Source: Squalus acanthias
Taxonomy: Eukaryota
DNA length: 64,000 nucleotides
Assembly: GCA_030390025.1 (NCBI GenBank)
Contig: CM059431.1
Coordinates: 152,956,001-153,020,000, forward strand
Direction of reading: 5' to 3'
Within the stretch, counting starts at the first letter, position 1. The number at the start of each line of letters is the position of its first letter. The translations under genes and the position numbers were made by a program. Under the pieces are notes generated by a model. The model had not been told where the DNA came from. It did not search any database and saw only the letters and a list, made by a program, of their open reading frames with translations. This document shows positions 6,701 to 53,433 of the stretch, piece after piece.

Positions 6701-9700
6701 TGTCTTATGGAGAGACTCCCTCTTAAATAGGGATCACTAATGGGGAGACTCTCTTTAAAAGGGGTCCCTGAGGGAGAGAAATTCTCTTTAAAAGGTTTCC
6801 CTGATGGAGAGACTCCCGCTTTAAAAGTTGTCTCTCATGGTGAGACTCCCGCTTTAAAAGGGACCCCTGATGGTGAGTTTATCTATTTAAAAGAATTCCT
6901 TGATGGTGAGATTCCCTCTTTAATAGATTTCCCTGATGAAGTGTCTATCTCATTAAAAGCGGTCCCTGATGCTGAAACAGCTTCTGTAAAAGGGGCCCTG
7001 ATGATGAAACTCCCTCTTTAAAAGGGGTCTCTGATGGTGAGACTCTCTCTTTAAAAGTTGTCAATGATGCTGAAACACCCTCTATAAAGGTATCCCTGAT
7101 GGTGAATCTGTCTCTTTAAAAGTGGTCTCTGATGGTGAGACTGAATCTTTAAAAGGGGTCCCTGATGGTGAGACACCATCTTGAATAGGGGTCCCTGATG
7201 GAGAGACTCCCTCTTTAAAAGATCTCTCTGATGTCGAAACTCTCTCTTAAAAAGGGCTCCCTGATAGAAAGAATCCCTCTTTAGAAGGGTCTCTGATGGT
7301 GAGACTCGCTCTTTACAATAGCTCCCAATAGAAAGACTCCCGTTTTAAAAGGTATCCCTGATGGTGAGTCTCTATCTTTAAAATGTATCACTGATGGTGA
7401 GACTCCCTCTTTAAAAGGGGTCCCTGATGGTGAGACTCGCTCTTTAAATGTTGTCCCTGATGGTGAGACACCCACTTTAAAAGAGGTCCCTGAAAGGGAT
7501 ACGTTCTCTTTAAAATGGGTCCCTGATGGTGCGACTCTCTCTTTAAATTGATTCTCTGAATGTGAGACTCCGTCTTTAAAAGAGGTTCTGAAGTTAAGAC
7601 TTTCTCTTTAAAAGGGATCCCTGATGGTGAGACTCCCTCCTAAAAATTGGTCCCGGATGGTTAGACTGTCTTTAAAAGGAAACCCTGATAGAAAGACTCC
7701 CTCATTAAAAGTGTAGCTGATGGTAAGACTCCCTAATTAAAAGGGCTCCCTCAGAGAAAGACTCCCTCTTTAAAAGAGGTCCCAGATGGTAAGACACACC
7801 CTTTAAAAGGGTTCACTAACAGAAAGACTACCTATTTAAAAGGGTCTCTGATGGTGAAACTCCCTCTTTAATCAGAGTCCCTGATGCTGAAACATCCTCA
7901 TTAAAAGGGGTCCCTGATAGAGTGTCTCCCTCTTGAAAACGGGTCCCTGATGATGAGGCACCCTCTTTAAAATGGGGCCCTGTTTGGAGAGACTCTCTCA
8001 TTAGTAGTCGTCCCTGAAGGGGATACCTCCTCTTTGAAAGGGGACCCTGATGGTGAGACTCTCTCTTTAAATGGGGTCTCTGATGGGGAGATGACCTCTT
8101 TAAAAGGGATTCCTGATGTTGACTCTCCCTTTTTAAAAGGGTCCCCTGATGGTGAGACTCCCTCTTTAAGAGGGGCCCGTAAAGTTGAGACTCTCTTTTT
8201 AAAAGGTGTCACTGATGGTGAGACTCCCTCTTTAAAAGGTGTTCCCTGATGGTGAGACTCCCTCTTTAAAAGTGCCCCTAATGGGGATACTCTCTCTTTA
8301 TAGGTTCCCTGATAGAAAGACACCCTCTTTAAAAGGGGTCCTTGATTGAAAGTCTCTCTTTTTAAAGGTGTCCCTGATGGTGAGACTCCCTCTTTAAAAG
8401 AGTTCCCTAATGGTGAGACACACTGTTTAAAAGGGGTCCCTAGTGGAGAAACTCTCTCATTCAAAGGGTTCCCTGAAGGGGATACTCCCTCTTTAAAAGC
8501 GGTCCTTGATGGTGAAACCCTCTCTTTAAAAGGGGACTCTGATTGTGAGACTACCTCTTTAAAAGTGTCCCTAATGGGGAATCTCTCTCTTTATGGGTAC
8601 CCTGGTAGAAATAAGCCCTCTTTAAAAGGGGTTCTTGATTGAAAGACTCTCTCTTTAAAATGTGCCCCTGTTGGTGAGACACCCTCTTTAAAAGGGTTCC
8701 CTGATAGAAAGTCTCTCACTTTAAAAGGTGTCCCTGTGGGTGAGGCTCCCTCTTTAAATGAGGTCCCTAATGGTGAGGCTACATCTTCAAAAGGGGTCCC
8801 TGGTGGAGAGACTCTCTCGTTAGAAGGGGTCCCTGAAGAGGATACTCCCTCTTTAAAAGGGCTCCCTGATGGTGAGACCCACTCTTTAAAAGGGATCTCT
8901 GCTGGTGAGACATCTTCTTTAAAAGGGTTCCCTTATGGGGACAATATCTCGTTAAAAGGGATCCTCCATTTTAAGAATCCCTTTTTCAAAATGTGTCCCT
9001 GATGGTGAGACTCCCTCTTTAAAAGATGTCCCTGACGGGGATACACCCTCTTTAAAAGGGGTCCCTGATGTTGAGACTCTCTCTTTAAATTGGTCTCTGA
9101 TGGTGAGACTCCCTCTTTAAAAGGACTCCCTGATAGAAGAATCCCTCTTTAAAAGTTTCTCTGATGTTTAGACTCCCTTATTAAAAGGGCTCCCTGGGAG
9201 AAAGACTCCCTCTTTAAAAGGAATCCCTGAGGGTGAGACTCACTCTTTAAAAGAAAATCCCTGATGGAAAGATTCACTGTTTAAAAGGGCTCACTGATAG
9301 AAAGACTGCCTCTTTAATAGGCTCTCTGACGGTGAGACTCACTCTTTAAAAGGTGTCTCTGATGGTGAGACTTCCTCTTTAAAAAGCATCCCTAATGGGG
9401 AGAATATCTTGTTAAAACGGATCCCTGATGGTGAGGCTCCCTCTTTAAAAGGGGTCCCTGATGGTGAGACTCCCTCTTTAAAAAGGATTCCTGGTGGTGA
9501 GGCTCCCACTTTAAAAGGTGTCCTGATGGGGATACCCCCTTTTTAAAAGTGGTCCCTGATGGAGACACTCTTTCTTTAATAGGGGTCTCTGATGCAGACA
9601 CTCCCTCTTTGAAAGGGGACGCTGATGGAGTCTCTCCCTCTTTAAAAGGGGTCCCTGATGGAGGCACTCTTCTTTAAGAGCGTTCCCTGATGCAGAGACA

Positions 9701-32830: not shown

Positions 32831-33845
32831 GGTGCCAGGCCTTCAATCCTGGGACTGTTCATCCTCAGGATCCTGACTTTCATTTGCTGCTTTGTCTTTA
32901 ATTATTTTAATGATTTTTGTTCCTCCCTCTTGGGGGTTTCATATTTTCCAGATCCCTGAGAGGGTTTGTCGGACCGTTTATTATCTTGACGATCCTCCTG
33001 TTGAGATGCACGTTGGTTCTGCCGGGAATCTTTTTGATCCGCATAACAGTTTTCCCGGTATCCTCCCACGGCTCTCTGATAAATTTAGCCAGTTTAAAAG
33101 CTGTCCCCATAGGGAGGCCACAGTCCTTCACTTTCCTTTCGAGGTCTAGCCCCTCGTCTATCCCATCTTTCTGGGGAGAAAAGTTTCTCGTATTCTGGAC
33201 GAGTTGGTGTTGTTACGTTTCTGGAATACTCTCTTGGGGTTCACTAGCCACGAGTTTGTGTCTGGGCGGGGTGCATTGAGACTTGGGTCTATACAGTCCT
33301 TGTTTCTGAGTACCAAATCTACCTTCTCCGTTTTTTATATCCCTAGTTTCTGAACACTTTATAGGTTTAGTTTGGGGTAGACCTAAGAGGTCATGATTTA
33401 ATTCGATATTGCGATTGACATTATCCCATCTCTCTTGGTTATCTCGATAATCATTTAGAGCACCCTCACAAGCAAGTTTGAGGGCTGTATTCTGGTATTG
33501 TTGGTCAGGCAACCATGGACAAAATCCCAGTTATCCTGTGTCAGTATTTGCCTAATCTGTAAGCAGCTACCAGCCCTTTAGTTGTTGCTGTATTAGTGAG
33601 TATCTCCTTGATGGAACCCATTTCCTGCCCTCCCTGAGTAGCTTTGAGAACATAAGCGGATATTTGAACCCAGTTGTTACACTGGTTTAATGGGGGAATT
33701 AAGTTTGATCTTAGTATCATTTGCAGTATTTGCCACAGCTTTTGGGCATTCCAATCTTGGCAGCAGGTTTCCAATTGATCAAGGTTAGTTAGAATCCAGC
33801 AGGTTTTTTCCTGGCTGGTGTTTCCCAGTCTACCACACATTGTGT

Positions 33846-34045
33846 ACAAAAGTGAGAAGTCGCACAACACCAGGTTAAGTCCAACAGTTTTATTTGAAAT
33901 CACAAGCTTTCGTAGCGGCTCTCCTTCGTCAGGTGCCGCTCCGAAAGCTTGTGATTTCAAATAAAACTGTTGGACTATAACCTGGTGTTGTGCGACTTCT
34001 CACTTTTGTCCACCCTAGTCCAACACCGGCATCTGTGCATCATGG
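33846..34045 (+). mobile_element. 200-bp Penelope-like hairpin element (inverted 3' end plus tail) inserted in gag
   Basis: Inverted repeat 33846-34009, then a 36-nt tail CCACCCTAGTCCAACACCGGCATCTGTGCATCATGG. 11-bp TSD ACACATTGTGT (33835-33845, 34046-34056). Contains a hammerhead motif. Confidence 0.85.
33900..33935 (-). ncRNA. Minimal type I hammerhead ribozyme motif
   Basis: CAC-CTGACGA-AGGAG-AGCCG-CTAC-GAAA-GCTT-GTGA: CUGANGA and GAAA cores, palindromic AAGCTT stem III, CAC/GTG stem I, one mismatch in stem II. Confidence 0.7.
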
Positions 34046-34913
34046 ACACATTGTGTCGATAGAGCTCAGGTTTATTTGACCTAGGGGCACAATTTGGTTT
34101 GCTGGGGTTAGTTTACTCGACCATTAATCATTGCGCCTCCAGCATTTTGTATTTGCTGGGGTTAGTTTACTGGACCATTAATCATTGCGCCTCCATCATT
34201 TAGATAAGAGTGAGCGAGTGCCTGTCGGAATTGATTAAATTGAATTCTAAGCTGTCTATATTTTTCTCGAAGATTGTTGTCATTTATTTCATCGTGAGTT
34301 TGCCACCTTACCCGGAGTCCATGTCCCTTAGCACCACAGGCTGCTCTGGGTCCTGCTATTCGGCAATGGTTGCCACCAGCTTGTTGGGCGCCGTTCATTA
34401 GCGCTCCCAATTGTGCAGGTGTGCACCTTATCATTAAGGAATTTATTGGATTTGGAGTATTTGTTTGATTATTCTACTGGATATTCTGTATCCCCTGGTT
34501 CTGGTGATCAACATTAATCGTGACATGAGTTCTAACGGCTCCTTCGGCATCAAAGCCTTTTATTTCAAAAATTATCACTTGGTTTTCCGGAGGTACACGC
34601 ATAGGATTATTTTCCCTAATAAAGCAATCGTTTGAATTTTCTAATAAATATAATTAGGCAATTCCGACAGGGTTTACATTTTGTCAGGACCTAACCTCGG
34701 TTACTTTTTAATATCAACTTTATAAGAAATTTCCAGATCTCAATGGTATATTGAGGGAGTTCTGAGTTAAGTTCTACAAGGCCTGATCAGGGACTTGTCG
34801 TCTCTAGAAACTTAAATCTCGGTGTTAGTCAGTAAACACTCCTTCTATACTTATAAATCTGCAAGATGGATAGAGTTATAAATATAAGTATATGTTATGT
34901 ATCAAGTCCTTAA

Positions 34914-45424: not shown

Positions 45425-45871
45425 ACATAGAAACATAGAAGATAGGAGCAGGAGTCGGCCATTCGGCCCCTCGAGCCTGCTCCGCTATTTAATGAGATTA
45501 TGGCTGATCATGCAAATTCAGTACCGCCTCCCTGCTTTCTCTACATATCCCTTGATCCCTTTAGCCTTAAGAAATATATGTAACTGCTTACTGAATGTAT
45601 TTAATGAGTTGGTCTCAACTGCCTTCTGTGGTACTGAATTCCACAGGGTCACCATCCCTGTGTGAAGAAATTCCTCCTCATCTCAGTGATAAATGGCTTA
45701 CCCCTTATCCTTAGACCGTGACCACTGGTTCTGGACTCCCCCACCGTCGCTAACATCCTTCCTGCATCTAGTCTGTCCAGTCCTGTTAGAATTTTATAAG
45801 TTTCAATGAGATCCCCTCTAATTCTTCAAAACTCCAGCGAATATAAGATTAATCGACCCAATCTCTCTTCA
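45425..45871 (-). mobile_element. CR1 3' fragment, continues at 53265-53432
   Basis: CTATGTTTCTATGT tail and CR1 C-terminal coding sequence. Homology resumes after the Penelope/Tx1 insert, with TSD CAATCTCTC(T/A)TCA at 45859-45871 and 53265-53277. Confidence 0.88.
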
Positions 45872-46915
45872 AATGTGAGAAGTGGCACAACACCAGGTTA
45901 TAGTCCAACAGCTTTATTTGAAATCACAAGCTTGTGGTGAGCAGCAGCAGCAGAGTGGTGGTCTCTGTGAGCAGGAAGAGGAGAAGGAGAAGGAGACCAG
46001 ACAGCAGGCCACCACCAACCCACAACCAACAACCACAACTGAGGTGCCTGGAGAGAGAGGACAGGAGAGGAGAAAGAAAAGAAAGGAAGGCCAAGGCCAT
46101 TAACAACAGAGGAGAGGCCTTTCCACACTGCCTCCTCAATTGGCCTCCATTTTAGGAGAGGGAGAGAGGGGAGAAAAACAACACAACATCCATCATCTGT
46201 TTGGAAGGAGGAAGGAAGGAAAGAACAACAGCTACAGGTGGGTGTGATTCTGGTGCACTCTCCCAGAGACTTTGTTTTGTAGGTGGGGGGAGGAAAGAAG
46301 ATAAGAAGAGGGCCGGAACATCCAAGGGGTGTGTGTGTGTGTGTGTGTGGCTTTTGTAAAAGCTAGGCCGCACACACCATATTAAACACCCCTTTCCCAT
46401 TGCCTGACCTGGGACAGCTGGAGCTGCCTAGGTGAAGTCCCCAATTAATTTAATATTATTGGGCATCGTTAAGACCTGGTGCAAGACTGAGCCTCGGCAT
46501 CTCCAGCTATCCCAGGTGAAGACATCTTCTCCCCCCACCAGAAGACCACCACCACCAAAGACTTTTATTACATCGGAGAGTGCACCCCCCTGCCAACACC
46601 CACCCACCCACCATCCTGAGTGGCGACCCTGCCCTTGCGGCTTCCCTCCTTCCCACCCCCCCTCTCTCTCTCTCTTTGTCTCTTGTCTCTCTCTGCCTCT
46701 CTCTCTAAGAGGCACCTCAATCTATTTTAATTAAGTACCTATTGAGCAGAGGGGAGAAGGCCCCTCTCCCAATTAATTCATATAAAGGGAGAGGTGTGCC
46801 TTCAATTTAAGAGCTCCCTCTGCTCAGGGGAAAACAAAAACAAAAAACCAGAGGCCATTAACACCTTCAGGCCTGTGACTTGGGGTGAGTGTAGCCCTTA
46901 AAAGACCCGTCCATC

Positions 46916-49072
46916 ATGGCGAGCACATCTTCGTCGGTGGCGGGGGCAGCGAGGACGTATGCGAGCGTGGCAGCCGCGGCCACGGCCGCAGCCACGAGTC
47001 CTGCTGTTACCCCGTCACCATTTACCCTCCTAACGAGGAAGAATGGGGTCAAGAGCTACACTCACCCCAACATGACTATAGAGGCGTGCGTTAAAGCCAT
47101 GGCTGGGGTTGTCGGCCCTTCAGCCATCGTCGCCGCCTCTAAAATGTACGGCAAGGCTGTGTTCTTCCTGGGGTCGGAGCGGGCGGTGTCCCTGGCCATC
47201 GAGAAGGGGCTCACCGTGGGCGGGACCTTCCTGCCGGTGGAACCCCTTGAGGCCACCGCGCAAAGGATTGTGGTTTCCAACGTCCCGCCCTTTGTTCCGG
47301 GTGAGCTCCTCCTCCCCCACCTACATCAACTGGGGGAGGTGAGGTCGGGGATCACACCCATCCCGCTCGGCTTCCGGGAAGCCAGCCTTCGGCACGTCTT
47401 CTCCTTCCGGCGCCAGCTTTTCGTCCGGCTGGCGCGGGAGGAGGACGCGGATGGCGCGTTCACGGTGCTCCACGGGGGGACCGCCCACCTCGTCTTCTGG
47501 ACCTCGGACGGCGTGCGGTGCTACGCCTGTAAGGAGGTGGGGCAGGTCCGCAAAAACTGCCCCGCCTCCAAGGCCGCCACGACACCTGGCGCGGCCAGGG
47601 TTGGCGCCGCCGCCCCCCCTCCCCCTGATACAGTCCGCGCGTCGACGGCGACGGATGCGCGGTCGAAATCGGAGGGCAACACCACCACGGCCTCCGGCGG
47701 GGGGGAGGGAGAGCGTCCGGTGGGAAGGAAGGCGTGTAGGAAAAATAAACATCTAGGGGCGGATCCCCTCGCGGAGGAAACATCGGAGTTGACCGAACTC
47801 ACGCCCGAGTACATCGCGGAGTTGGTCGGGACGCATGAGACTGGGGGGGTCCTCGTGCCCGGGCCCGTGACCGTGACCGCAACTGCTGAGGCAGCTAAAG
47901 CAACACCTGCAGCCGGGCTCGGGCCCGAGGGGCCCAAGAAACCCAGTCGTCGGAAGGGGGCAGAGAGGGAGACCCCAGCAGACATGGAGGCCTCCCCCTC
48001 TCCGGGCCCCAACTTGTTAAAAAGAAAGCTCCGCCCCCAGCAGGAGGACTGCGAGGAGGAAGGTCCCTCCGCAAAAGGGGGGCAGTCGCCCGCAGCGGGT
48101 GCTGCGCCCCACCCCACCACCGTCATCGTCGCACGCGATCGGCGGGGGTCGTCTGTCCCTCGGGAGGGTGAGACAGCCGAGTCTGTCCCACCTGTGCCTC
48201 CCGGGGATGGGGAAGAGACCCTGCCCGTGGGGGGGGGGGGCGCGGAACAACCTGCGGAGGGAAATGTAGTTCCGGAACCGTTGCTCCTCGCCGGGTCGGG
48301 CGTCCTGGGGACTGGGGCGGGCGAGGCCAAAGAGGCTGAAGCCGAGCCCGCCTTTTATAACCCAGACATCTCCCAGGGACTGCTCGACCTGGTGGAGGAG
48401 TGTAGCAATCCCCAGCCCGCTGGGTCGGAGGTTGGTGGCGGGGAGACGGAAAGCCCCCTGACTCTGTCTCTGTTGTTGGCGCCGGACGTGCTGGAGGAAT
48501 TAGAGATTATTTTCTCCCCGGTTTCTCCGGTCGCTCCGGCGCCTGAGGCGGGGGGGGGGCCTGAACCGCCGCCGCCTCCCGGCCCGGCGCCCCTGAAGGA
48601 GCCCAGGGTGGACTCCTCTGCCACCGATCCTGGGGGTGGGATCGTGACGGAGGCGGAGCCGGCCGGTGCGGCCGAGCCGTTCGCTGCACTCCGTGTGACG
48701 GACGGGTTGGCCGCCGGTGACGACCTCCCGGAGGAGGACGGGGACTCGGTGTTGGGCAACGAGGACGATTTGGAGTCCATCAGCAGCGAGGCGATGGACG
48801 CCCTCGTGCCCTTCACCGACTCTCCCCTCATCCCCGTAGGGGAACTCCGGGATTTTATGGCCATGAGCCAGGGTCGTCACAAGAAGATCCGGCTGGCCCT
48901 CGACAAGTGGTCGGAGCTGGCGCTGCTCGTCGTGTCCGTCCGCGCCGCCGTTAAAATCATGGGCGCGGACAAGGACGTTGGCCGGCTCGAGCTGCGTCGG
49001 CTCAAGAGTTTCCACACTGGGCTGCTGAGGGAGTGGCGGTCGTCAGTGACCGCGCTCCCTCCCCTCCGTTAG
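46916..49072 (+). CDS. Tx1 ORF1 (gag-like nucleic-acid-binding protein), 718 aa
   Basis: RTYASVAA N-terminus; AASKMYGKAVFFL, VVSNVPPFV and RHVFSFRRQ motifs; zinc knuckle CYACKEVGQVRKNC (His replaced by Gln); long low-complexity C-terminal half. Confidence 0.92.
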   Translation: MASTSSSVAGAARTYASVAAAATAAATSPAVTPSPFTLLTRKNGVKSYTHPNMTIEACVKAMAGVVGPSAIVAASKMYGKAVFFLGSERAVSLAIEKGLTVGGTFLPVEPLEATAQRIVVSNVPPFVPGELLLPHLHQLGEVRSGITPIPLGFREASLRHVFSFRRQLFVRLAREEDADGAFTVLHGGTAHLVFWTSDGVRCYACKEVGQVRKNCPASKAATTPGAARVGAAAPPPPDTVRASTATDARSKSEGNTTTASGGGEGERPVGRKACRKNKHLGADPLAEETSELTELTPEYIAELVGTHETGGVLVPGPVTVTATAEAAKATPAAGLGPEGPKKPSRRKGAERETPADMEASPSPGPNLLKRKLRPQQEDCEEEGPSAKGGQSPAAGAAPHPTTVIVARDRRGSSVPREGETAESVPPVPPGDGEETLPVGGGGAEQPAEGNVVPEPLLLAGSGVLGTGAGEAKEAEAEPAFYNPDISQGLLDLVEECSNPQPAGSEVGGGETESPLTLSLLLAPDVLEELEIIFSPVSPVAPAPEAGGGPEPPPPPGPAPLKEPRVDSSATDPGGGIVTEAEPAGAAEPFAALRVTDGLAAGDDLPEEDGDSVLGNEDDLESISSEAMDALVPFTDSPLIPVGELRDFMAMSQGRHKKIRLALDKWSELALLVVSVRAAVKIMGADKDVGRLELRRLKSFHTGLLREWRSSVTALPPLR

Positions 49073-49097
49073 GTAGAGGTTGCACTATGCTTCTGAG

Positions 49098-52000
49098 ATG
49101 AAGATAACCATAGCCAGCCTCAACATCAACGGCAGCAGGGAGGCGCGCCGTAGATTCAATAACTTCTCGGTCCTTCGGGACGGGAAATATGCGGTGTGCT
49201 TCCTGCAAGAAACACACACCGTTCCGGGAGACGAGGCCACGTGGCTCCTGGAGTGGTAAGGAGGGGTCAGCATGAGTCACCTCTCTAACAATTCCTGCGG
49301 GGTGGCTGTCTTGCTGGCCCCGCATTTTCAGCCGGAGATCTTGAGGGTCAAGGAGCACGTGCCGGGCCGCTTGCTCCAGGTCACTGTTCGCCTGGGAGGC
49401 GTGCCGCTCCATTTAGTAAACGTGTACGCCCCCCGGACCGGTGTGCAGCAAGTGCGCTTCTGCAGAGAAGTGTCCGCTCTTCTGGGCTCCATCGACGTGG
49501 GCGAGTGCGTCATCCTCGGGGGGGATTTCAATTGTACCCTCGAGGCGCGGGACCGGTCGGGTCCCCCGCGAAGCCCGGCGGCGATGGAGAAGTTGCGGGA
49601 CCTGGTCGGGTCCTTCGACTTGGTGGACGTCTGGCGAAATCTCCATCCCGACTCCAGCGCCTTCACGAGCGTGAGGTCTGGAGGAGGAAGGTCCAGAATC
49701 GACCGCCTTTACATTTCCCGGGCGTACGTCTCCTGCGTTCCGGCGGCTTCCATGCGGCCGGTGCCGTGCACGGACCATCACCTGGTGTGGGCGGAGCTCG
49801 CTCCGCTGCGTGCGCGGGGGGGGTCCGCGTACTGGCATTTTAACAACCTGCTGCTGGAGGACGCGCGGTCCGGGATTCGTTTCGCCGGTTCTGGGCCGAC
49901 TGGAGAAGGAAGCGGGGAGGCTTCCCCTCCTTGAGGCTATGGTGGGACGTGGGCAAGGCTCACGTCCGCGTCTTCTGTCAGGAGTACGCGAAGGGGTCGA
50001 CCAAGAGGCGGGAGGCCCGGGTCGGGCGATTGGAGAAAGAAGTGCTCGACCTGGAGTCCCGTCTCGGTCAAGTCGTCGAGGACCCGGCCCTGCGGAAGGT
50101 GTACGAAGAGAAGAAGGGCGCGCTGAAGGACCTGCAGCTGGTCGGGTCCCGAGGCGCGTACGTGAGGTCGCGGATCCAGTTCCTGCGGGACCTGGACCGC
50201 GGCTCCCCCTTCTTCTACTCGCTGGAAAAAAGACGGGGGGTCCGTAAGCAGCTCTTGGGGCTGCTGGCCGACGACGGATCTCTGGTCTCGGATCCGGAGG
50301 GCATCAGCGTGGAGGCCCGGGCCTATTACGGGGCTCTGTTCTCTTCGGATCCGTCCAGCGAGGATGCGCGCAGAGTTTTGTGGGAGGACCTGCCGAAGGT
50401 CGGCCCGGAGGGCGCCGAGAATTTAGAAGCTCCGCTAAGCCTGGCGGAGCTGACCGGCGCCCTGCGCCAGCTCTCGAGGGGCAAGTCCCCGGGGCTGGAC
50501 GGGCTGACCGTGGAGTTCCACAGGGCGTTCTGGGACGTCTTGGGGGACGACTACGCGCGGGTCCCGGGGGAAAGTCTGGCGACCGGGGAGATGCCCCTCT
50601 CTTGGCGCAGGGCGGTCATCGTCCTGCTGCCCAAGAAGGGCGATCTCCGCCTACTTAAGAACTGGCGCCCGGTCTCCCTCCTCAGCACGGACTACAAAAT
50701 TTTCGCCAGGGCTATGTCTGCTCGCCTTGGCACCGTGCTGGCCCGTATGATCCACCCCGACCAGTCCTACACGGTCCCGGGCCGGAGTATCCACGATAAC
50801 ATCCATCTGGTCCGGGATCTGGTCCACCATTCCCAGAGGGCTGGTCTGTCGGTCGCCTTCCTTTCCCTAGATCAGGAGAAGGCGTTCGACAGGGTGGATC
50901 ACGAGTATCTTTTCGGGACTCTGCGCGCATTCGGGTTCGGGACGCATTTCGTCGCCCGGATCCGACTTCTGTACGCCGCCGCGGAGTGTCTCATTAAAGT
51001 TAACGGGTCTTTGACGGCGCCCCTTCGCTTCGGGAGGGGGGTGCGTCAGGGATGCCCCATGTCCGGTCAGTTATACGCCGTTTGCGTGGAGCCTTTCCTG
51101 CGCCTCTTGCGGAAGAGGTTGACGGGACTGGCTCTGCAAGGGCCGGGCGTGGAGGTGGTCCTCTCGGCTTACGCCGATGACGTGCTCCTCGCGATCACGG
51201 ATCCCGTCGACTTGCGGAGGATGCGAGAATGCCAGCAGATTTACTCGGACGCATCCTCCGCCAAGATCAACTGGGAGAAATGTTCTGGACTCCTGGTGGG
51301 CCCATGGCAGGTGGACTCCCTGCCGGAGGAGTTCGGGCCTTTCGCCTGGAGCACCACGCACCTCCTCTACCTGGGAGTCTACCTCAGCCCGGCCGAGGAC
51401 GCCTGGCCGGCGAACTGGCAAGAGCTGGAGGCCAAAGTCACCGCTCGCCTAGGGCGCTGGACAGGACTGCTCCGAGTGTTGTCCTACAGGGGTCGAGCGC
51501 TGGTCATAAACCAGCTGGTGGCCGCCATGTTGTGGTACCGGTTGGTCACTTTGATCCCTCCCCCTGCGTTTGTCGCCAAGATGCAGAAGAAGCTCGTCGA
51601 CTTCTTCTGGGACAAAAGGAAGCACTGGGTCTCTGCCGTGGTTTTGAGTCTCCCGCTTAGGGAGGGCGGTCAGGCGCTGGTGTGCCTTCGCACCCAGGCG
51701 GCGACTTTCCGTCTTCAGACGCTGCAGAGATACCTGTACGTGGAGAATCCCCCTCGTTGGCGTGCGCTGGCGACGTATTTCTTCCGCCAGCTGCACGGCC
51801 TCAATTACGACACGCAGCTCCTGTTTGTGAGAGTGGGTGGCATGCGTGCCAGCCTGCGGGAGCTGCCTGTCTTCTACCAGGAACTGCTATGGGTTTGGAA
51901 CAGCGTCGCCTCCGAGCGCAGTTCTCCCCCGTCAGGAGCGGCGGCCGTCCTTCGGGAGCCGCTGTTCAGGAATCCGCACCTCCACGAGCGCGGGTTCGGC

Positions 52001-52996
52001 TGGCTGGCGGAGGGTAGGGCTGTGCCCGGTAAGGTGACCAGAGTCGGGGACCTGCTCGATGGCGGAGGAGCGGGCTGGATGGCGCCGGAGGAGTTGGCGA
52101 GGCGCATGTCCTGGGTCAACGTCCGGCTCGCGGTCAAAGCCATCGAGTCGCTAAAAGTGGCACTGGGCCCCGTCTCCACTAGGTGTATCGAGGAGGCTCA
52201 AGCACGTGGGGCGATCCCGTCCGAACTGACCCCCGTTCGGACGGAATTCCTTATCGGCGCCCGGCCCCGAATCCTCCCTCGGGAGCCGCCGCCTCACCAC
52301 TTGAGCCTTCTCGGAGAAATGCCCTCCGTGCCCTTTCAATCCGCACGGAGGCGTTTCCTGTACGGGCTGCTCCTGCACACTCTCCACTTTGCCATCTTCG
52401 TCTGCCGTCCGGACACGCCTTGGCGTACCATCCTGCCGTCCGGCGGAGGCGAAGGTCCCCATTGGAAGGCTCTCTACGTGGGAGTCTTCCCTTGTTCTAT
52501 TGGGGACTTGGCCTGGAGGGTGTTGCACGGAGCAGTCCCGTGCAATAGGATTTTAAGTAGGTTTACGGACTCCCAGGCTGCTTGTCATTTCTGCGGCCTG
52601 GAGGAGTCCGTCTATCACATTTATATTGAGTGTGAGAGGTTGCAGCCCCTCTTTCATTATTTGAAGGGGCTGCTCCTCAATTTCTGGTTGCACTTCAGCC
52701 CCACGCTCCTGATCTACGGTCACCCGGTGCGGAGGGGAGCGGGTAGGTCGGAGGACCTCCTCGTAGGACTGCTCCTGGGCCTGGCCAAGAAAGCCATTAA
52801 TTGGTCCAGGCAGCGGGCGGTCGAGGGGGTCGTTCGGCCCGATTGCCTGCCTCTCTTCCGCGGCCATGTTCGCGCCCGGGTGGCCCTGGAGATGGAGCAC
52901 GCGGTGTCCGCCGGCACGCTTGAGTTTTTCCGCGACCGGTGGGCGCCGCGGGGGCTGGAGTGCATCGTCACCCCGGACTTCCAAATTTTGATTTGA
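49098..52996 (+). pseudogene. Tx1 ORF2 (AP endonuclease, RT, CCHC) with one nonsense codon and one frameshift
   Basis: Starts MKITIASLNING...FLQETH. TAA at 49257-49259; GGDFN, SRIDRLY, TDHH; 1-nt deletion near 49869; then NWRPVSLL, LDQEKAFDRV, GVRQGCP, AYADD and CHFCGLEESVYHIYIEC. Confidence 0.95.
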
Positions 52997-53139
52997 TTTA
53001 TTAAGTTTCATTTAAAGTTTTAATTGATTTACAGTAAATTTTGATTTGTTCAACCAAAAAGAGCAACACCAGGTTATAGTCCAAACGCTTTATTAGAAAT
53101 CACAAGCTTTCCGAGCGCTACACCTTCGTCAGGTTCACT

Positions 53140-53176
53140 TCACCTGACGAAGGAGCAGCGCTCCGCAAGCTTGTGA
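53140..53176 (+). ncRNA. Minimal hammerhead ribozyme motif (GAAA mutated to GCAA); antisense twin at 53100-53134
   Basis: TCAC-CTGACGA-A-GGAG-CAGCG-CTCC-GCAA-GCTT-GTGA, with stem I TCAC/GTGA and stem II GGAG/CTCC. The minus-strand arm keeps GAAA but has stem II mismatches. Confidence 0.7.
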
Positions 53177-53433
53177 TTTCTAATAAAGCTGTTGGACTAT
53201 AACCTGGTGTTGTGCGACTTCTCACATTTGTCCACCCCAGTTCAACACCAGCATCTCTACATCACAATCTCTCATCATACGTCATACCTGCCATCCCAGG
53301 TATCAGACTGGTCAATCTTCGCAGCACTCCCTCCAAGGCAAGAACATCCTTTCTCAGATAAGGCGACCAAAACTGCACACATTACTCAAGGTGTTGTCTC
53401 ACCAAGGCCCTGAACAGCTGCAGCAAGACATCC

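What the first reader, a model, noticed from the sequence alone, without database searches (positions are those of the whole stretch)
45872..53264. Tx1 retrotransposon inserted at the hammerhead ribozyme of a Penelope hairpin: candidate new target-specific family
Seen: a full-length Tx1 sits inside a ~200-bp Penelope-like hairpin with a long 46-bp duplication. Its 5' junction falls exactly after AAGCTT, the palindromic stem III of the hammerhead. The element starts GTG, creating the palindrome CACAAGCTTGTG and recreating the ribozyme substrate strand AAGCUU/GUG. A same-strand hammerhead lies about 75 nt past the 3' end (53140-53176). Established: Tx1-clade families are often sequence-specific for multicopy targets (U2 snRNA, 5S rDNA, tRNA arrays, microsatellites, a DNA transposon in Xenopus), and Penelope minimal hammerheads act as dimers through palindromic stem III. 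Inference: this family targets Penelope termini and might borrow their ribozyme to cut its RNA out of read-through transcripts at both ends. I know of no description of this, but it rests on one insertion and only a 3-nt stem I match.
Basis: partly seen in the sequence, partly recalled or inferred. Interest (0 to 1): 0.85.

Follow-up and report, generated by a model that had tools for sequence, protein, structure and literature searches.

The report
Tx1 LINE targeting Penelope element tails
A young Tx1-type jumping gene in this shark-like genome lands almost only at one exact base in the tail of a very abundant Penelope-like element, and its full-length copies carry a piece of that target as a built-in 5' leader; the proposed borrowing of the Penelope ribozyme is not supported.

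Summary
The Tx1 element (45934-53063) does sit inside a Penelope-like (PLE) hairpin. Its family is target-specific. In an unbiased sample, 35 of 42 3' junctions abut the same PLE site, starting CAACACCAGG. Genome-wide, 368 junctions match the target pattern and 12 match a strict off-target pattern. There are 68,929 intact empty sites.

1. The 46-nt repeat is not a target duplication. 5'-truncated and off-target copies have 11-15-bp duplications. In 13 of 18 full-length copies the upstream D16-46 differs from the local target. It is a PLE-derived 5' leader inherited through the RNA.
2. The AAGCTT|GTGGTGAGC junction belongs to one sub-lineage: 107 of 618 exact 5' ends, against 429 and 82 for two other forms.
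3. A same-strand hammerhead-like motif follows only 4 of 42 junctions. The one in the window has GCAA instead of GAAA. No Rfam ribozyme model matches.

An inherited leader upstream of the proposed cut site argues against hammerhead processing of the 5' end.

The scan already reported this Tx1-to-PLE targeting from other DNA of this genome. The leader result is new here. Tx1 families that target other transposons are published, so this is a new member of a known kind.

The parts
45860..45871 (.). Possible host target duplication of the PLE hairpin insertion (AATCTCTCTTCA). Its partner is at 53266-53277 (AATCTCTCATCA).
   Evidence: Read by eye; 11 of 12 positions identical. Not tested further.
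45872..45887 (+). Outer end of the hairpin's left arm. This is the PLE tail read antisense ('U'), ending ...GTGGCA just before the Tx1 nick site.
   Evidence: arm 45870-45945 pairs with 53155-53230. The same U sequence (GAGAAGTCGCA) lies upstream of other copies.
45888..45902 (+). D1-15 (CAACACCAGGTTATA): the upstream copy of the 13-15-bp target-site duplication.
   Evidence: Duplication length comes from 5'-truncated and off-target copies. D12-16 is at least partly inherited with the element in the short-leader lineage.
45903..45933 (+). D16-46: PLE-derived 5' leader carried by the Tx1 RNA. It is not a duplication of the local target.
   Evidence: It differs at 3 positions from the local target copy at 53079-53109, and one of the local variants is shared with the other hairpin arm. 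The same holds for 13 of 18 full-length copies, including copies whose local PLE ends at D18 (L015) or turns back at D13 (L144).
45934..53063 (+). Tx1-clade LINE body of sub-lineage (a), starting GTGGTGAGCAGC and ending ...CAACCAAAAAGAG. There is no poly(A).
46895..49072 (+). ORF1-like open frame (725 codons, stop to stop).
   Evidence: No Pfam match.
49098..49862 (+). ORF2 N-terminal APE endonuclease region, interrupted by an in-frame stop at about 49257-49259.
   Evidence: tblastn with Xenopus Tx1 ORF2 aligns residues 1-258 here. The open frame only starts at 49260. Exo_endo_phos E=1.1e-6.
49859..52996 (+). Rest of ORF2 (RT and zf-RVT), in a different frame from the APE part (frameshift near 49860).
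   Evidence: residues 262-1293. RVT_1 E=4.5e-38 and zf-RVT E=9e-5.
53064..53078 (+). D1-15: downstream copy of the target-site duplication (original target).
53064..53134 (+). Left arm of the PLE hairpin (PLE tail and hammerhead region read antisense).
   Evidence: inverted repeat I2, 71 nt, 92%.
53142..53212 (+). Right arm of the hairpin (PLE sense strand). It holds the hammerhead-like motif at about 53144-53172 with GCAA in place of GAAA.
   Evidence: Compared with intact motifs in other PLE tails. No Rfam hit.
53213..53265 (+). 3'-terminal tail of the PLE (TGCGACTTCTCACATTTGTCCACCCC...CATCA).
   Evidence: The same tail, read antisense, lies upstream of many Tx1 copies.

Best explanation
This is one copy of a young, high-copy Tx1-clade LINE family that inserts by target-primed reverse transcription at one fixed position in the tail of a very abundant Penelope-like element (PLE). 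It always inserts antisense to the PLE. The first nick falls between ...GTCGCA and CAACACC. The second nick falls 13-15 bp downstream, giving a 13-15-bp target duplication. Both duplicated copies keep the recognised CAACAC... sequence, so sites are hit again and head-to-tail arrays build up. Full-length copies carry a stretch of the target itself at their 5' end: D1-16 in a short-leader lineage, D1-46 in the window's lineage (a), and about D1-59 plus a few more bases in the commonest lineage (b). This stretch is inherited with the element, so it is part of the RNA that is copied. Inferred, not shown: transcription starts in (or upstream of) the target-derived sequence. The cDNA end complementary to this leader then anneals to the cut target and primes second-strand synthesis, giving seamless and uniform 5' junctions, as proposed for R2 elements whose RNA keeps upstream 28S sequence. 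The PLE hammerhead plays no demonstrable part.
For: 3' specificity: of 42 distinct 3' junctions found with a query that held no flank, 35 abut the PLE site, 6 abut non-PLE sites that still begin CAACAC, and 1 is other. These come from the 30 best of 1390 candidates. Exhaustive pattern counts give 368 on-target and 12 strict off-target. There are 68,929 intact empty sites in 3.7 Gb. Independent insertions: the downstream PLE copies belong to different subfamilies or are hairpins. Duplication length: truncated on-target copies have 13-15 bp (L001, L013, L019, L026, L028). Off-target copies have 11-15 bp, all starting CAACAC (L012, L018, L024, L027, L082, L083, L089, L093). Inherited leader: all 30 sampled full-length 5' ends are preceded by D1-46. 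In 18 full-length copies with a non-tandem PLE flank, D16-46 differs between the upstream and downstream copies in 13, including two whose local PLE lacks that stretch entirely. In the short-leader lineage 9 of 20 junctions carry G at D12, against 54 of about 69,000 empty sites. 5' forms: 107 (a), 429 (b), 82 short-leader. Arrays: periods of about 7.15-7.2 kb at many loci. Tx1 identity. Published precedents: R2 RNAs that keep upstream 28S sequence have uniform 5' junctions (PMC3774820, abstract read). Tx1-Mar families target a Mariner element, and other Tx1 families target LTR retrotransposons. That paper also describes tandem insertions around a duplication and a target-derived 5' extension of a Tx1-mobilised SINE (PMC4494074, passages read).
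Against: No RNA data: the true 5' end of the transcript is unknown. The role of the leader in 5' joining is an inference from DNA copies only. The one full-length copy with an apparently off-target 3' flank (L084/L094) has 11 nt of U plus D1-46 upstream and no matching duplication. That fits an RNA starting upstream of D1, or a later rearrangement, and was not resolved. Five of 18 pairs show no difference in D16-46 and are uninformative. D1-24 is nearly invariant among PLE copies, so the pairs alone cannot place the boundary between duplication and leader. Arrays of equally truncated units share private 5' variants but differ in their 3' tails. Simple repeated insertion does not explain this. 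Endonuclease specificity and a need for primer-template pairing at CAACAC cannot be told apart from sequence.
Confidence: 0.85

Rival explanations
1. One reading: the family targets the PLE hammerhead region and uses the PLE ribozyme to cut its RNA out of read-through transcripts, at AAGCUU|GUG at the 5' end and by a downstream hammerhead at the 3' end.
For: In lineage (a) the junction CACAAGCTT|GTG recreates the hammerhead stem III palindrome and a 3-nt match to stem I (107 exact copies). Hairpin-type targets do place a sense-strand hammerhead-like motif roughly 80-110 nt downstream. Intact PLE motifs show the expected pattern: invariant core, variable N7, variable stem II loop, and CAC/GUG to UAC/GUA covariation.
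Against: The leader upstream of AAGCTT|GTG is inherited with the element, so the copied RNA was not cut there. Only 107 of 618 counted 5' ends have this junction. The majority form reads AAGCTT|TCGG, which has no stem I match. Tx1 is antisense to the PLE, so no ribozyme core lies upstream. A same-strand motif follows only 4 of 42 junctions. The window's motif has GCAA for GAAA. A cut there would also leave about 109 nt of PLE sequence on the 3' end, not a clean end. No Rfam hammerhead or HDV-like hit in the leaders or hairpins at E<=10 or E<=1.
Confidence: 0.04
2. The 46-nt repeat is a genuine long target-site duplication made at insertion, and the three mismatches arose later.
For: A 46-nt direct repeat flanks the element exactly. 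D1-21 is identical in both copies.
Against: Three changes in 46 nt (6.5%) next to an element whose last 164 nt are 100% identical to 14 other copies. The upstream copy equals the family's usual leader, whereas one downstream variant is shared with the hairpin's other arm. Other copies have the leader where the local PLE lacks D19-46 (L015) or D14-46 (L144). Truncated copies have 13-15-bp duplications.
Confidence: 0.02
3. The apparent specificity is a by-product of DNA-level amplification: a PLE or segment that already carried a Tx1 was copied, or arrays were dispersed by duplication. It is not targeted retrotransposition.
For: Many copies lie in tandem arrays with regular periods. Units of truncated arrays share private variants, so some local duplication or conversion does occur.
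Against: Downstream PLE flanks differ in subfamily and architecture (linear, hairpin, truncated) between loci. Truncation points differ between loci, each with its own 13-15-bp duplication. Off-target insertions share only CAACAC with the target and have their own duplications. Tx1 lies antisense in the PLE tail and could not be carried by PLE retrotransposition in 5'-truncated PLE copies of very different lengths.
Confidence: 0.02
4. The PLE-derived leader is a passive fossil: a 5' transduction from master copies whose transcription starts in the flanking target. It has no role in integration, and leader-bearing lineages dominate by chance or for unrelated reasons.
For: At least two different junctions between PLE sequence and Tx1 body exist (D46 and about D59), which suggests separate accidental captures. 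The short-leader lineage also makes uniform junctions and arrays. A similar target-derived 5' extension is reported for a Tx1-mobilised SINE, with no function claimed (PMC4494074, passages read).
Against: Leader-bearing forms make up 536 of 618 counted 5' ends. Every lineage examined, even the 'short' one, keeps at least D12-16. All 30 sampled long-leader junctions are seamless. None of this proves function.
Confidence: 0.4

Closest known systems
Tx1L of Xenopus laevis (prototype of the Tx1 clade), which inserts at one site of the DNA transposon Tx1D
   Same: ORF2 is 52% identical over its whole length, with APE, RT and zinc-finger regions. Both insert sequence-specifically into another, multicopy transposable element (PMC1950540 and PMC4494074, passages read).
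   Different: The target here is the tail of a Penelope-like retroelement, hit antisense at ...GCA|CAACACC. Three literature searches found no such target. The Tx1L duplication length and 5' structure could not be checked because PMC85248 is not held.
Crocodilian Tx1-Mar families and SINEU (Kojima 2015, PMC4494074)
   Same: [quoted passage not shown] Other Tx1 families there prefer LTR retrotransposons. The paper reports tandem insertions around a 16-bp duplication. A SINE mobilised by them has a 5' extension derived from the target, read as transcription from the flanking target (passages read).
   Different: The target family differs (PLE). Here the target-derived leader sits on the autonomous LINE itself and marks its dominant lineages. 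The paper's supplementary figures S3-S6 were not seen.
R2 elements whose HDV-like ribozyme cuts upstream in the 28S rRNA (Eickbush et al. 2013, PMC3774820)
   Same: The RNA carries target sequence at its 5' end and the 5' junctions are uniform. The proposed mechanism is annealing of the first-strand cDNA to the target to prime the second strand (abstract read).
   Different: R2 has a restriction-like endonuclease and a demonstrated 5' ribozyme and is co-transcribed with rRNA. Here the LINE is APE-type, no ribozyme model matches, and the origin of the RNA 5' end is unknown.
Penelope-like elements with minimal hammerhead ribozymes in their terminal repeats
   Same: The target carries CUGANGA...GAAA-AGCU motifs with variable N7 and stem II loop and covarying stem I. 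It lies about 400 nt downstream of an ORF end with a GIY-YIG-like motif whose relatives carry an RT domain. PLEs are described as bearing minimal hammerheads that lack helix III (PMC6155905, passages read).
   Different: No Rfam model matches. Self-cleavage is untested. The hammerhead copies in the window are degenerate.

Membership tests
Tx1 clade of APE-type non-LTR retrotransposons | ORF2 with an N-terminal APE endonuclease, RT and a C-terminal zinc-binding region | tested here: met
   Exo_endo_phos E=1.1e-6, RVT_1 E=4.5e-38, zf-RVT E=9e-5. Collinear with Xenopus Tx1 ORF2 residues 1-1293.
Tx1 clade of APE-type non-LTR retrotransposons | Closest relatives are Tx1 elements rather than L1 or other clades | tested here: inconclusive
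   The best named hit is YTX2_XENLA (52% identity, 100% coverage, E=1.7e-273), and other hits are named 'Transposon TX1'. No tree with other clades was built.
Tx1 clade of APE-type non-LTR retrotransposons | Sequence-specific insertion with target duplication (common in the clade, not universal) | tested here: met
   35 of 42 sampled junctions lie at one PLE site. Counts are 368 against 12 by pattern. Duplications are 11-15 bp.
Penelope-like element (the target) | RT ORF ending in a GIY-YIG endonuclease domain | tested here: inconclusive
   The ORF end (P0116) has ..VVYLIRC..YISET..NGHR.., which I read by eye as GIY-YIG-like. The local Pfam copy gave no hit. Relatives are shark proteins with RVT_1 plus PF28514 and PF26215, whose names are not in the local library. 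RVT_1 was confirmed in two of them.
Penelope-like element (the target) | Minimal hammerhead motif in the terminal repeat; frequent inverted or tandem partial copies | tested here: met
   Core motif with variable N7 in 28 instances, 20 of them distinct. Hairpin at 33850-34010 and in the finding. About 22 +/- site pairs within 300 bp among the first 100 listed sites (counted by eye).
Hammerhead ribozyme (the motif at 53144-53172) | Intact catalytic core CUGANGA ... GAAA | tested here: not met
   The window copy reads GCAA instead of GAAA. The opposite-strand copy has a disrupted stem II. 23 of 80 other PLE tails in the fetched loci keep the full core.
Hammerhead ribozyme (the motif at 53144-53172) | Match to curated covariance models | tested here: not met
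   No hammerhead family at gathering score in the window, nor at E<=10 in 52900-53400 and 33800-34080. Minimal PLE forms lack helix III, so a miss is expected.
Hammerhead ribozyme (the motif at 53144-53172) | Self-cleavage | not testable with these tools
   Needs in vitro transcription and a cleavage assay.
R2-type 5' processing (works-like comparison only) | Self-cleaving ribozyme at the element's 5' end | tested here: not met
   No HDV-like or other ribozyme family at E<=10 in 45850-46350 or at E<=1 in loci holding the (b) and short-leader 5' ends.
R2-type 5' processing (works-like comparison only) | RNA retains target sequence at its 5' end; uniform 5' junctions | tested here: met
   Inferred from DNA copies: the leader is inherited. 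All 30 long-leader junctions are seamless. Of 20 short-leader junctions, 17 share one form and 2 share a near-identical form. RNA itself was not observed.

The most novel reading that the evidence does not exclude
An APE-type LINE lineage has captured 31 to about 47 nt of its own target (the antisense PLE tail) as a heritable 5' leader. The leader guides seamless second-strand priming at the next PLE site. This would be a convergent, ribozyme-free counterpart of the R2 strategy of keeping upstream 28S sequence, and it would explain why leader-bearing lineages make up 536 of 618 counted 5' ends.
Probability: 0.35. Interest if true: 0.6.

Novelty: new member of a known kind. Interest (0 to 1): 0.4.

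Why it matters
Target-specific LINEs show how an endonuclease and an RNA together choose a landing site, and they are being explored as tools for site-directed insertion. This family offers about 69,000 natural target sites and hundreds of young insertions. It also has off-target sites that share only CAACAC, and three 5'-end forms that differ in how much target sequence they carry. That makes it a natural experiment on two questions: what the endonuclease or primer pairing recognises, and whether 5' homology to the target improves completion of integration, a step that is still poorly understood. It is also a clear case of one retroelement using another as a safe harbour. For the scan, it shows that the ribozyme idea attached to this locus should be dropped.

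Tried and rejected
Rfam: no ribozyme family matched in the window at gathering score. None matched at permissive E-values in the hairpin, the second hairpin, the (a) leader, or loci with (b) and short-leader 5' ends.

RNA evidence: the look-up of sequencing runs listed no holder on record as RNA. The four runs laid were short contigs broken at repeats and showed no starts or ends. Nothing can be said about expression or RNA ends.

Pfam on the PLE ORF end gave nothing. PLE identity therefore rests on homologues and a motif read by eye.

I tested whether a 240-nt truncated form (start at element position 6890, seen at three loci) is a propagating mini-element. The exact junction occurs only once, so this was rejected.

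Search for full-length off-target insertions to map the leader's start:
- Three candidates were followed. One full-length 5' end was found (L094), with an ambiguous structure.
- Eleven more candidates were followed. Three had a 5' end at the expected place, all with PLE or tandem context.
- The start of the leader remains undefined.

Christensen et al. 2000 (PMC85248) is not held, so Tx1L's own duplication and 5' structure were not compared.

I considered whether the leader arose by template switching onto hammerhead-cleaved PLE RNA. This was rejected because the leader is antisense to PLE RNA.

I considered an intact hammerhead in the (b) leader. It shares CTGACGAAGGAGCAGC with the PLE motif but has no GAAA or closing stem II.


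Full report
**What is at the coordinates**

The stretch 45934-53063 (+) is a Tx1-type LINE.
- One long frame (46895-49072) has no Pfam match.
- ORF2 carries an APE endonuclease, RT and a zinc-binding region.
- ORF2 is 52% identical to Xenopus Tx1 ORF2 (YTX2_XENLA) over the whole query.
- The Xenopus protein aligns as residues 1-258 at 49098-49862 and 262-1293 at 49859-52981. This copy therefore has a frameshift near 49860. It also has an in-frame stop at about 49257-49259, because the open frame only begins at 49260.

The element sits in a hairpin. Arms 53064-53134 and 53142-53212 are 92% complementary, and 45870-45945 pairs with 53155-53230. A 46-nt direct repeat (45888-45933 and 53064-53109) flanks the element, but the two copies are only 93% identical. 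An uninterrupted hairpin of the same kind lies at about 33850-34010.

**The hairpin belongs to a Penelope-like element (PLE)**

- In longer copies next to other Tx1 insertions, the same sequence continues into an ORF end about 400 nt away, read antisense. That ORF end has a motif I read by eye as GIY-YIG-like.
- Its relatives are shark proteins that carry an RT domain. The local Pfam copy itself gave no hit on the ORF end.
- In 28 PLE tails from the fetched loci the motif CUGANGA - stem II - GAAA - GCUU is kept. N7 varies, the stem II loop varies in length, and stem I switches CAC/GUG to UAC/GUA. This is what a minimal PLE hammerhead should look like (PMC6155905, passages read).
- No Rfam model matches.
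- In the window the same-strand motif reads GCAA instead of GAAA, and the opposite-strand motif has a broken stem II.

**Target specificity holds**

I searched the genome with the last 164 nt of the element and no flank. This gave 1390 candidates, 40 of them scored, and 14 other places were 100% identical. In the 30 loci returned there are 42 distinct 3' junctions:

| 3' junction class | Count of 42 |
|---|---|
| Abuts the PLE site beginning CAACACCAGG (including three point variants and one 6-nt deletion) | 35 |
| Abuts a non-PLE sequence that still begins CAACAC | 6 |
| Different | 1 |

Exhaustive pattern counts give 368 junctions followed by CAACACCAGGTT. Twelve match a strict off-target pattern and 24 match a looser one. 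The intact empty 30-nt site occurs 68,929 times in 3.7 Gb, so random insertion would almost never hit it.

The downstream PLE copies differ in subfamily and architecture, so these are independent events. Tx1 always lies antisense to the PLE.

**The 46 nt are not a target duplication**

- 5'-truncated copies inside PLE sites are flanked by 13-15 bp, CAACACCAGGTTAT(A) (L001, L013, L019, L026, L028).
- Off-target copies have their own 11-15-bp duplications, all beginning CAACAC (L012, L018, L024, L027, L082, L083, L089, L093).
- By contrast, all 30 sampled full-length 5' ends are preceded by D1-46.
- I paired the 5' and 3' flanks of 18 full-length copies whose downstream flank is local PLE. D16-46 differs in 13 of them.
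- In L015 the local PLE stops at D18, and in L144 it turns back at D13. Both copies still have the full D1-46 upstream.
- In the window, the upstream copy equals the usual family leader. The downstream copy has three differences, one of them shared with the hairpin's other arm.

So D16-46 is inherited with the element and is part of the copied RNA.

**The 5' junction after AAGCTT is a lineage marker**

Exact-match counts for three 5' forms:

| 5' form | Count of 618 |
|---|---|
| AAGCTT+GTGGTGAGCAGC (the window's form, a) | 107 |
| AAGCTT+TCGGAGCTGCTGAC(TGA/GAA)GGAGCAGC (form b) | 429 |
| Short-leader form, D1-16 joined to CCTCAGCAGCCAG... | 82 |

Rarer forms were seen but not counted. Even the short form inherits target-like sequence. 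Nine of 20 of its junctions have G at D12, a variant present in only 54 empty sites against 68,929 with T. Its junctions are nearly uniform: 17 of 20 are identical in form, 2 are near-identical, and 1 has a deletion.

**What this means for the ribozyme idea**

- The sequence upstream of AAGCTT|GTG is copied along with the element, so the template RNA was not cut there.
- The majority form has no stem I match after AAGCTT.
- Tx1 is antisense to the PLE, so no ribozyme core lies upstream.
- A sense-strand motif exists only downstream and only in hairpin-type targets: 4 of 42 junctions.
- In the window that motif has a core change. A cut there would leave about 109 nt of PLE sequence on the RNA.
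- No hammerhead or HDV-like model matches any of the leaders.
- The (b) leader shares CTGACGAAGGAGCAGC with the PLE motif but lacks GAAA and the closing strand. I read it as a relic of a master copy that sat in a hairpin.

**Most likely mechanism**

Shown by sequence:
- The first nick falls at ...GCA|CAACAC... on the strand that is PLE-sense.
- There is a 13-15-bp staggered second nick.
- Both duplicated copies keep the CAACAC... sequence.
- Head-to-tail arrays have periods of about 7.15-7.2 kb at many loci, and arrays also form at off-target sites.
- The 5' leader is inherited.

Inferred: transcription starts in or upstream of the target-derived stretch. The cDNA end complementary to it then anneals to the cut target and primes the second strand, giving seamless junctions. 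This is the mechanism proposed for R2 elements whose RNA keeps upstream 28S sequence (PMC3774820, abstract read).

A passive origin, meaning transduction from a master copy transcribed from its flank, is equally able to create the leader and is not excluded. Kojima 2015 reads a similar target-derived extension of a Tx1-mobilised SINE that way (PMC4494074, passages read).

**Open points**

- The RNA 5' end is not mapped. The runs found were contigs only.
- One full-length copy with an off-target 3' flank has 11 nt of upstream PLE plus D1-46 and no matching duplication.
- Arrays of equally truncated units share private variants near their 5' ends but differ in their 3' tails. This points to local conversion or template switching beyond simple re-insertion.

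**Comparison and novelty**

Tx1 families are known to target multicopy sequences. Published targets include DNA transposons (Tx1L into Tx1D; Tx1-Mar into Mariner-N4_AMi) and LTR retrotransposons. Tandem insertions around a duplication are also described (PMC4494074, PMC1950540, passages read).

Three full-text searches found no description of a Tx1 family that targets a PLE. Subscription journals and Repbase reports are not covered by that library.

Earlier follow-ups in this scan reached the same targeting conclusion from six other pieces of this genome. None held the words I searched for a carried leader.

The verdict is a new member of a known kind. Its special claims (46-bp duplication, fixed GTG start, ribozyme borrowing) are wrong or unsupported.

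Noticed in passing
L002 (units 350-999, 1015-1664, 1680-2329); also L001, L019, L026: Tandem arrays of Tx1 units with identical 5' truncation points, separated by 14-15 nt of target. Units share private variants near their 5' ends but differ in the 3' tail, including tail variants that recur in several units. Simple repeated insertion does not explain identical truncation points.
   Followed up: partly
G000:C2:150177120, 150179409, 150181698 and G000:C6:68639307, 68640515, 68654442: Arrays also form at off-target sites. Three 3' ends spaced 2289 bp apart are each followed by the same non-PLE CAACACCATCTT. A second group on C6 is followed by CAACACCAAACC. Array building therefore does not need PLE sequence beyond CAACAC.
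   Followed up: no
window 33850-34010: A second, uninterrupted PLE hairpin of the same family, with an intact GAAA in its sense-strand motif. It serves as an empty-site comparison for the finding.
   Followed up: partly
L096 (G000:C1109:644838-645638): At the expected 5' end of a copy with an off-target 3' flank (L092), Tx1 positions 925-401 lie on the opposite strand. This looks like a 5' inversion of the kind known from L1 insertions.
   Followed up: no
L010, downstream of position 1664: The PLE copy hit by this Tx1 runs into a long array of roughly 60-nt repeats (GGACAGGGTAATTTAGGGGAACAC...). This may be an internal minisatellite of one PLE subfamily.
   Followed up: no
L019 at 2107, L022 at 2428, L088, L141: Several on-target 3' junctions read G instead of C at the first target base (..AAAGAG|GAACACC). 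This is a recurrent variant right at the priming site. It could reflect slippage or an untemplated base at the start of reverse transcription.
   Followed up: no
window 45500-45870 and 53266-53400: The PLE hairpin itself is inserted in another common repeat of this genome. The flanks read on across the insertion, with a 12-nt near-duplicate AATCTCTC(T/A)TCA on either side.
   Followed up: no
first 100 listed sites on G000:C1: About 22 pairs of + and - target sites lie within 300 bp of each other. Hairpin (fold-back) PLE insertions therefore make up a large share of the roughly 69,000 intact sites (counted by eye from the list).
   Followed up: no
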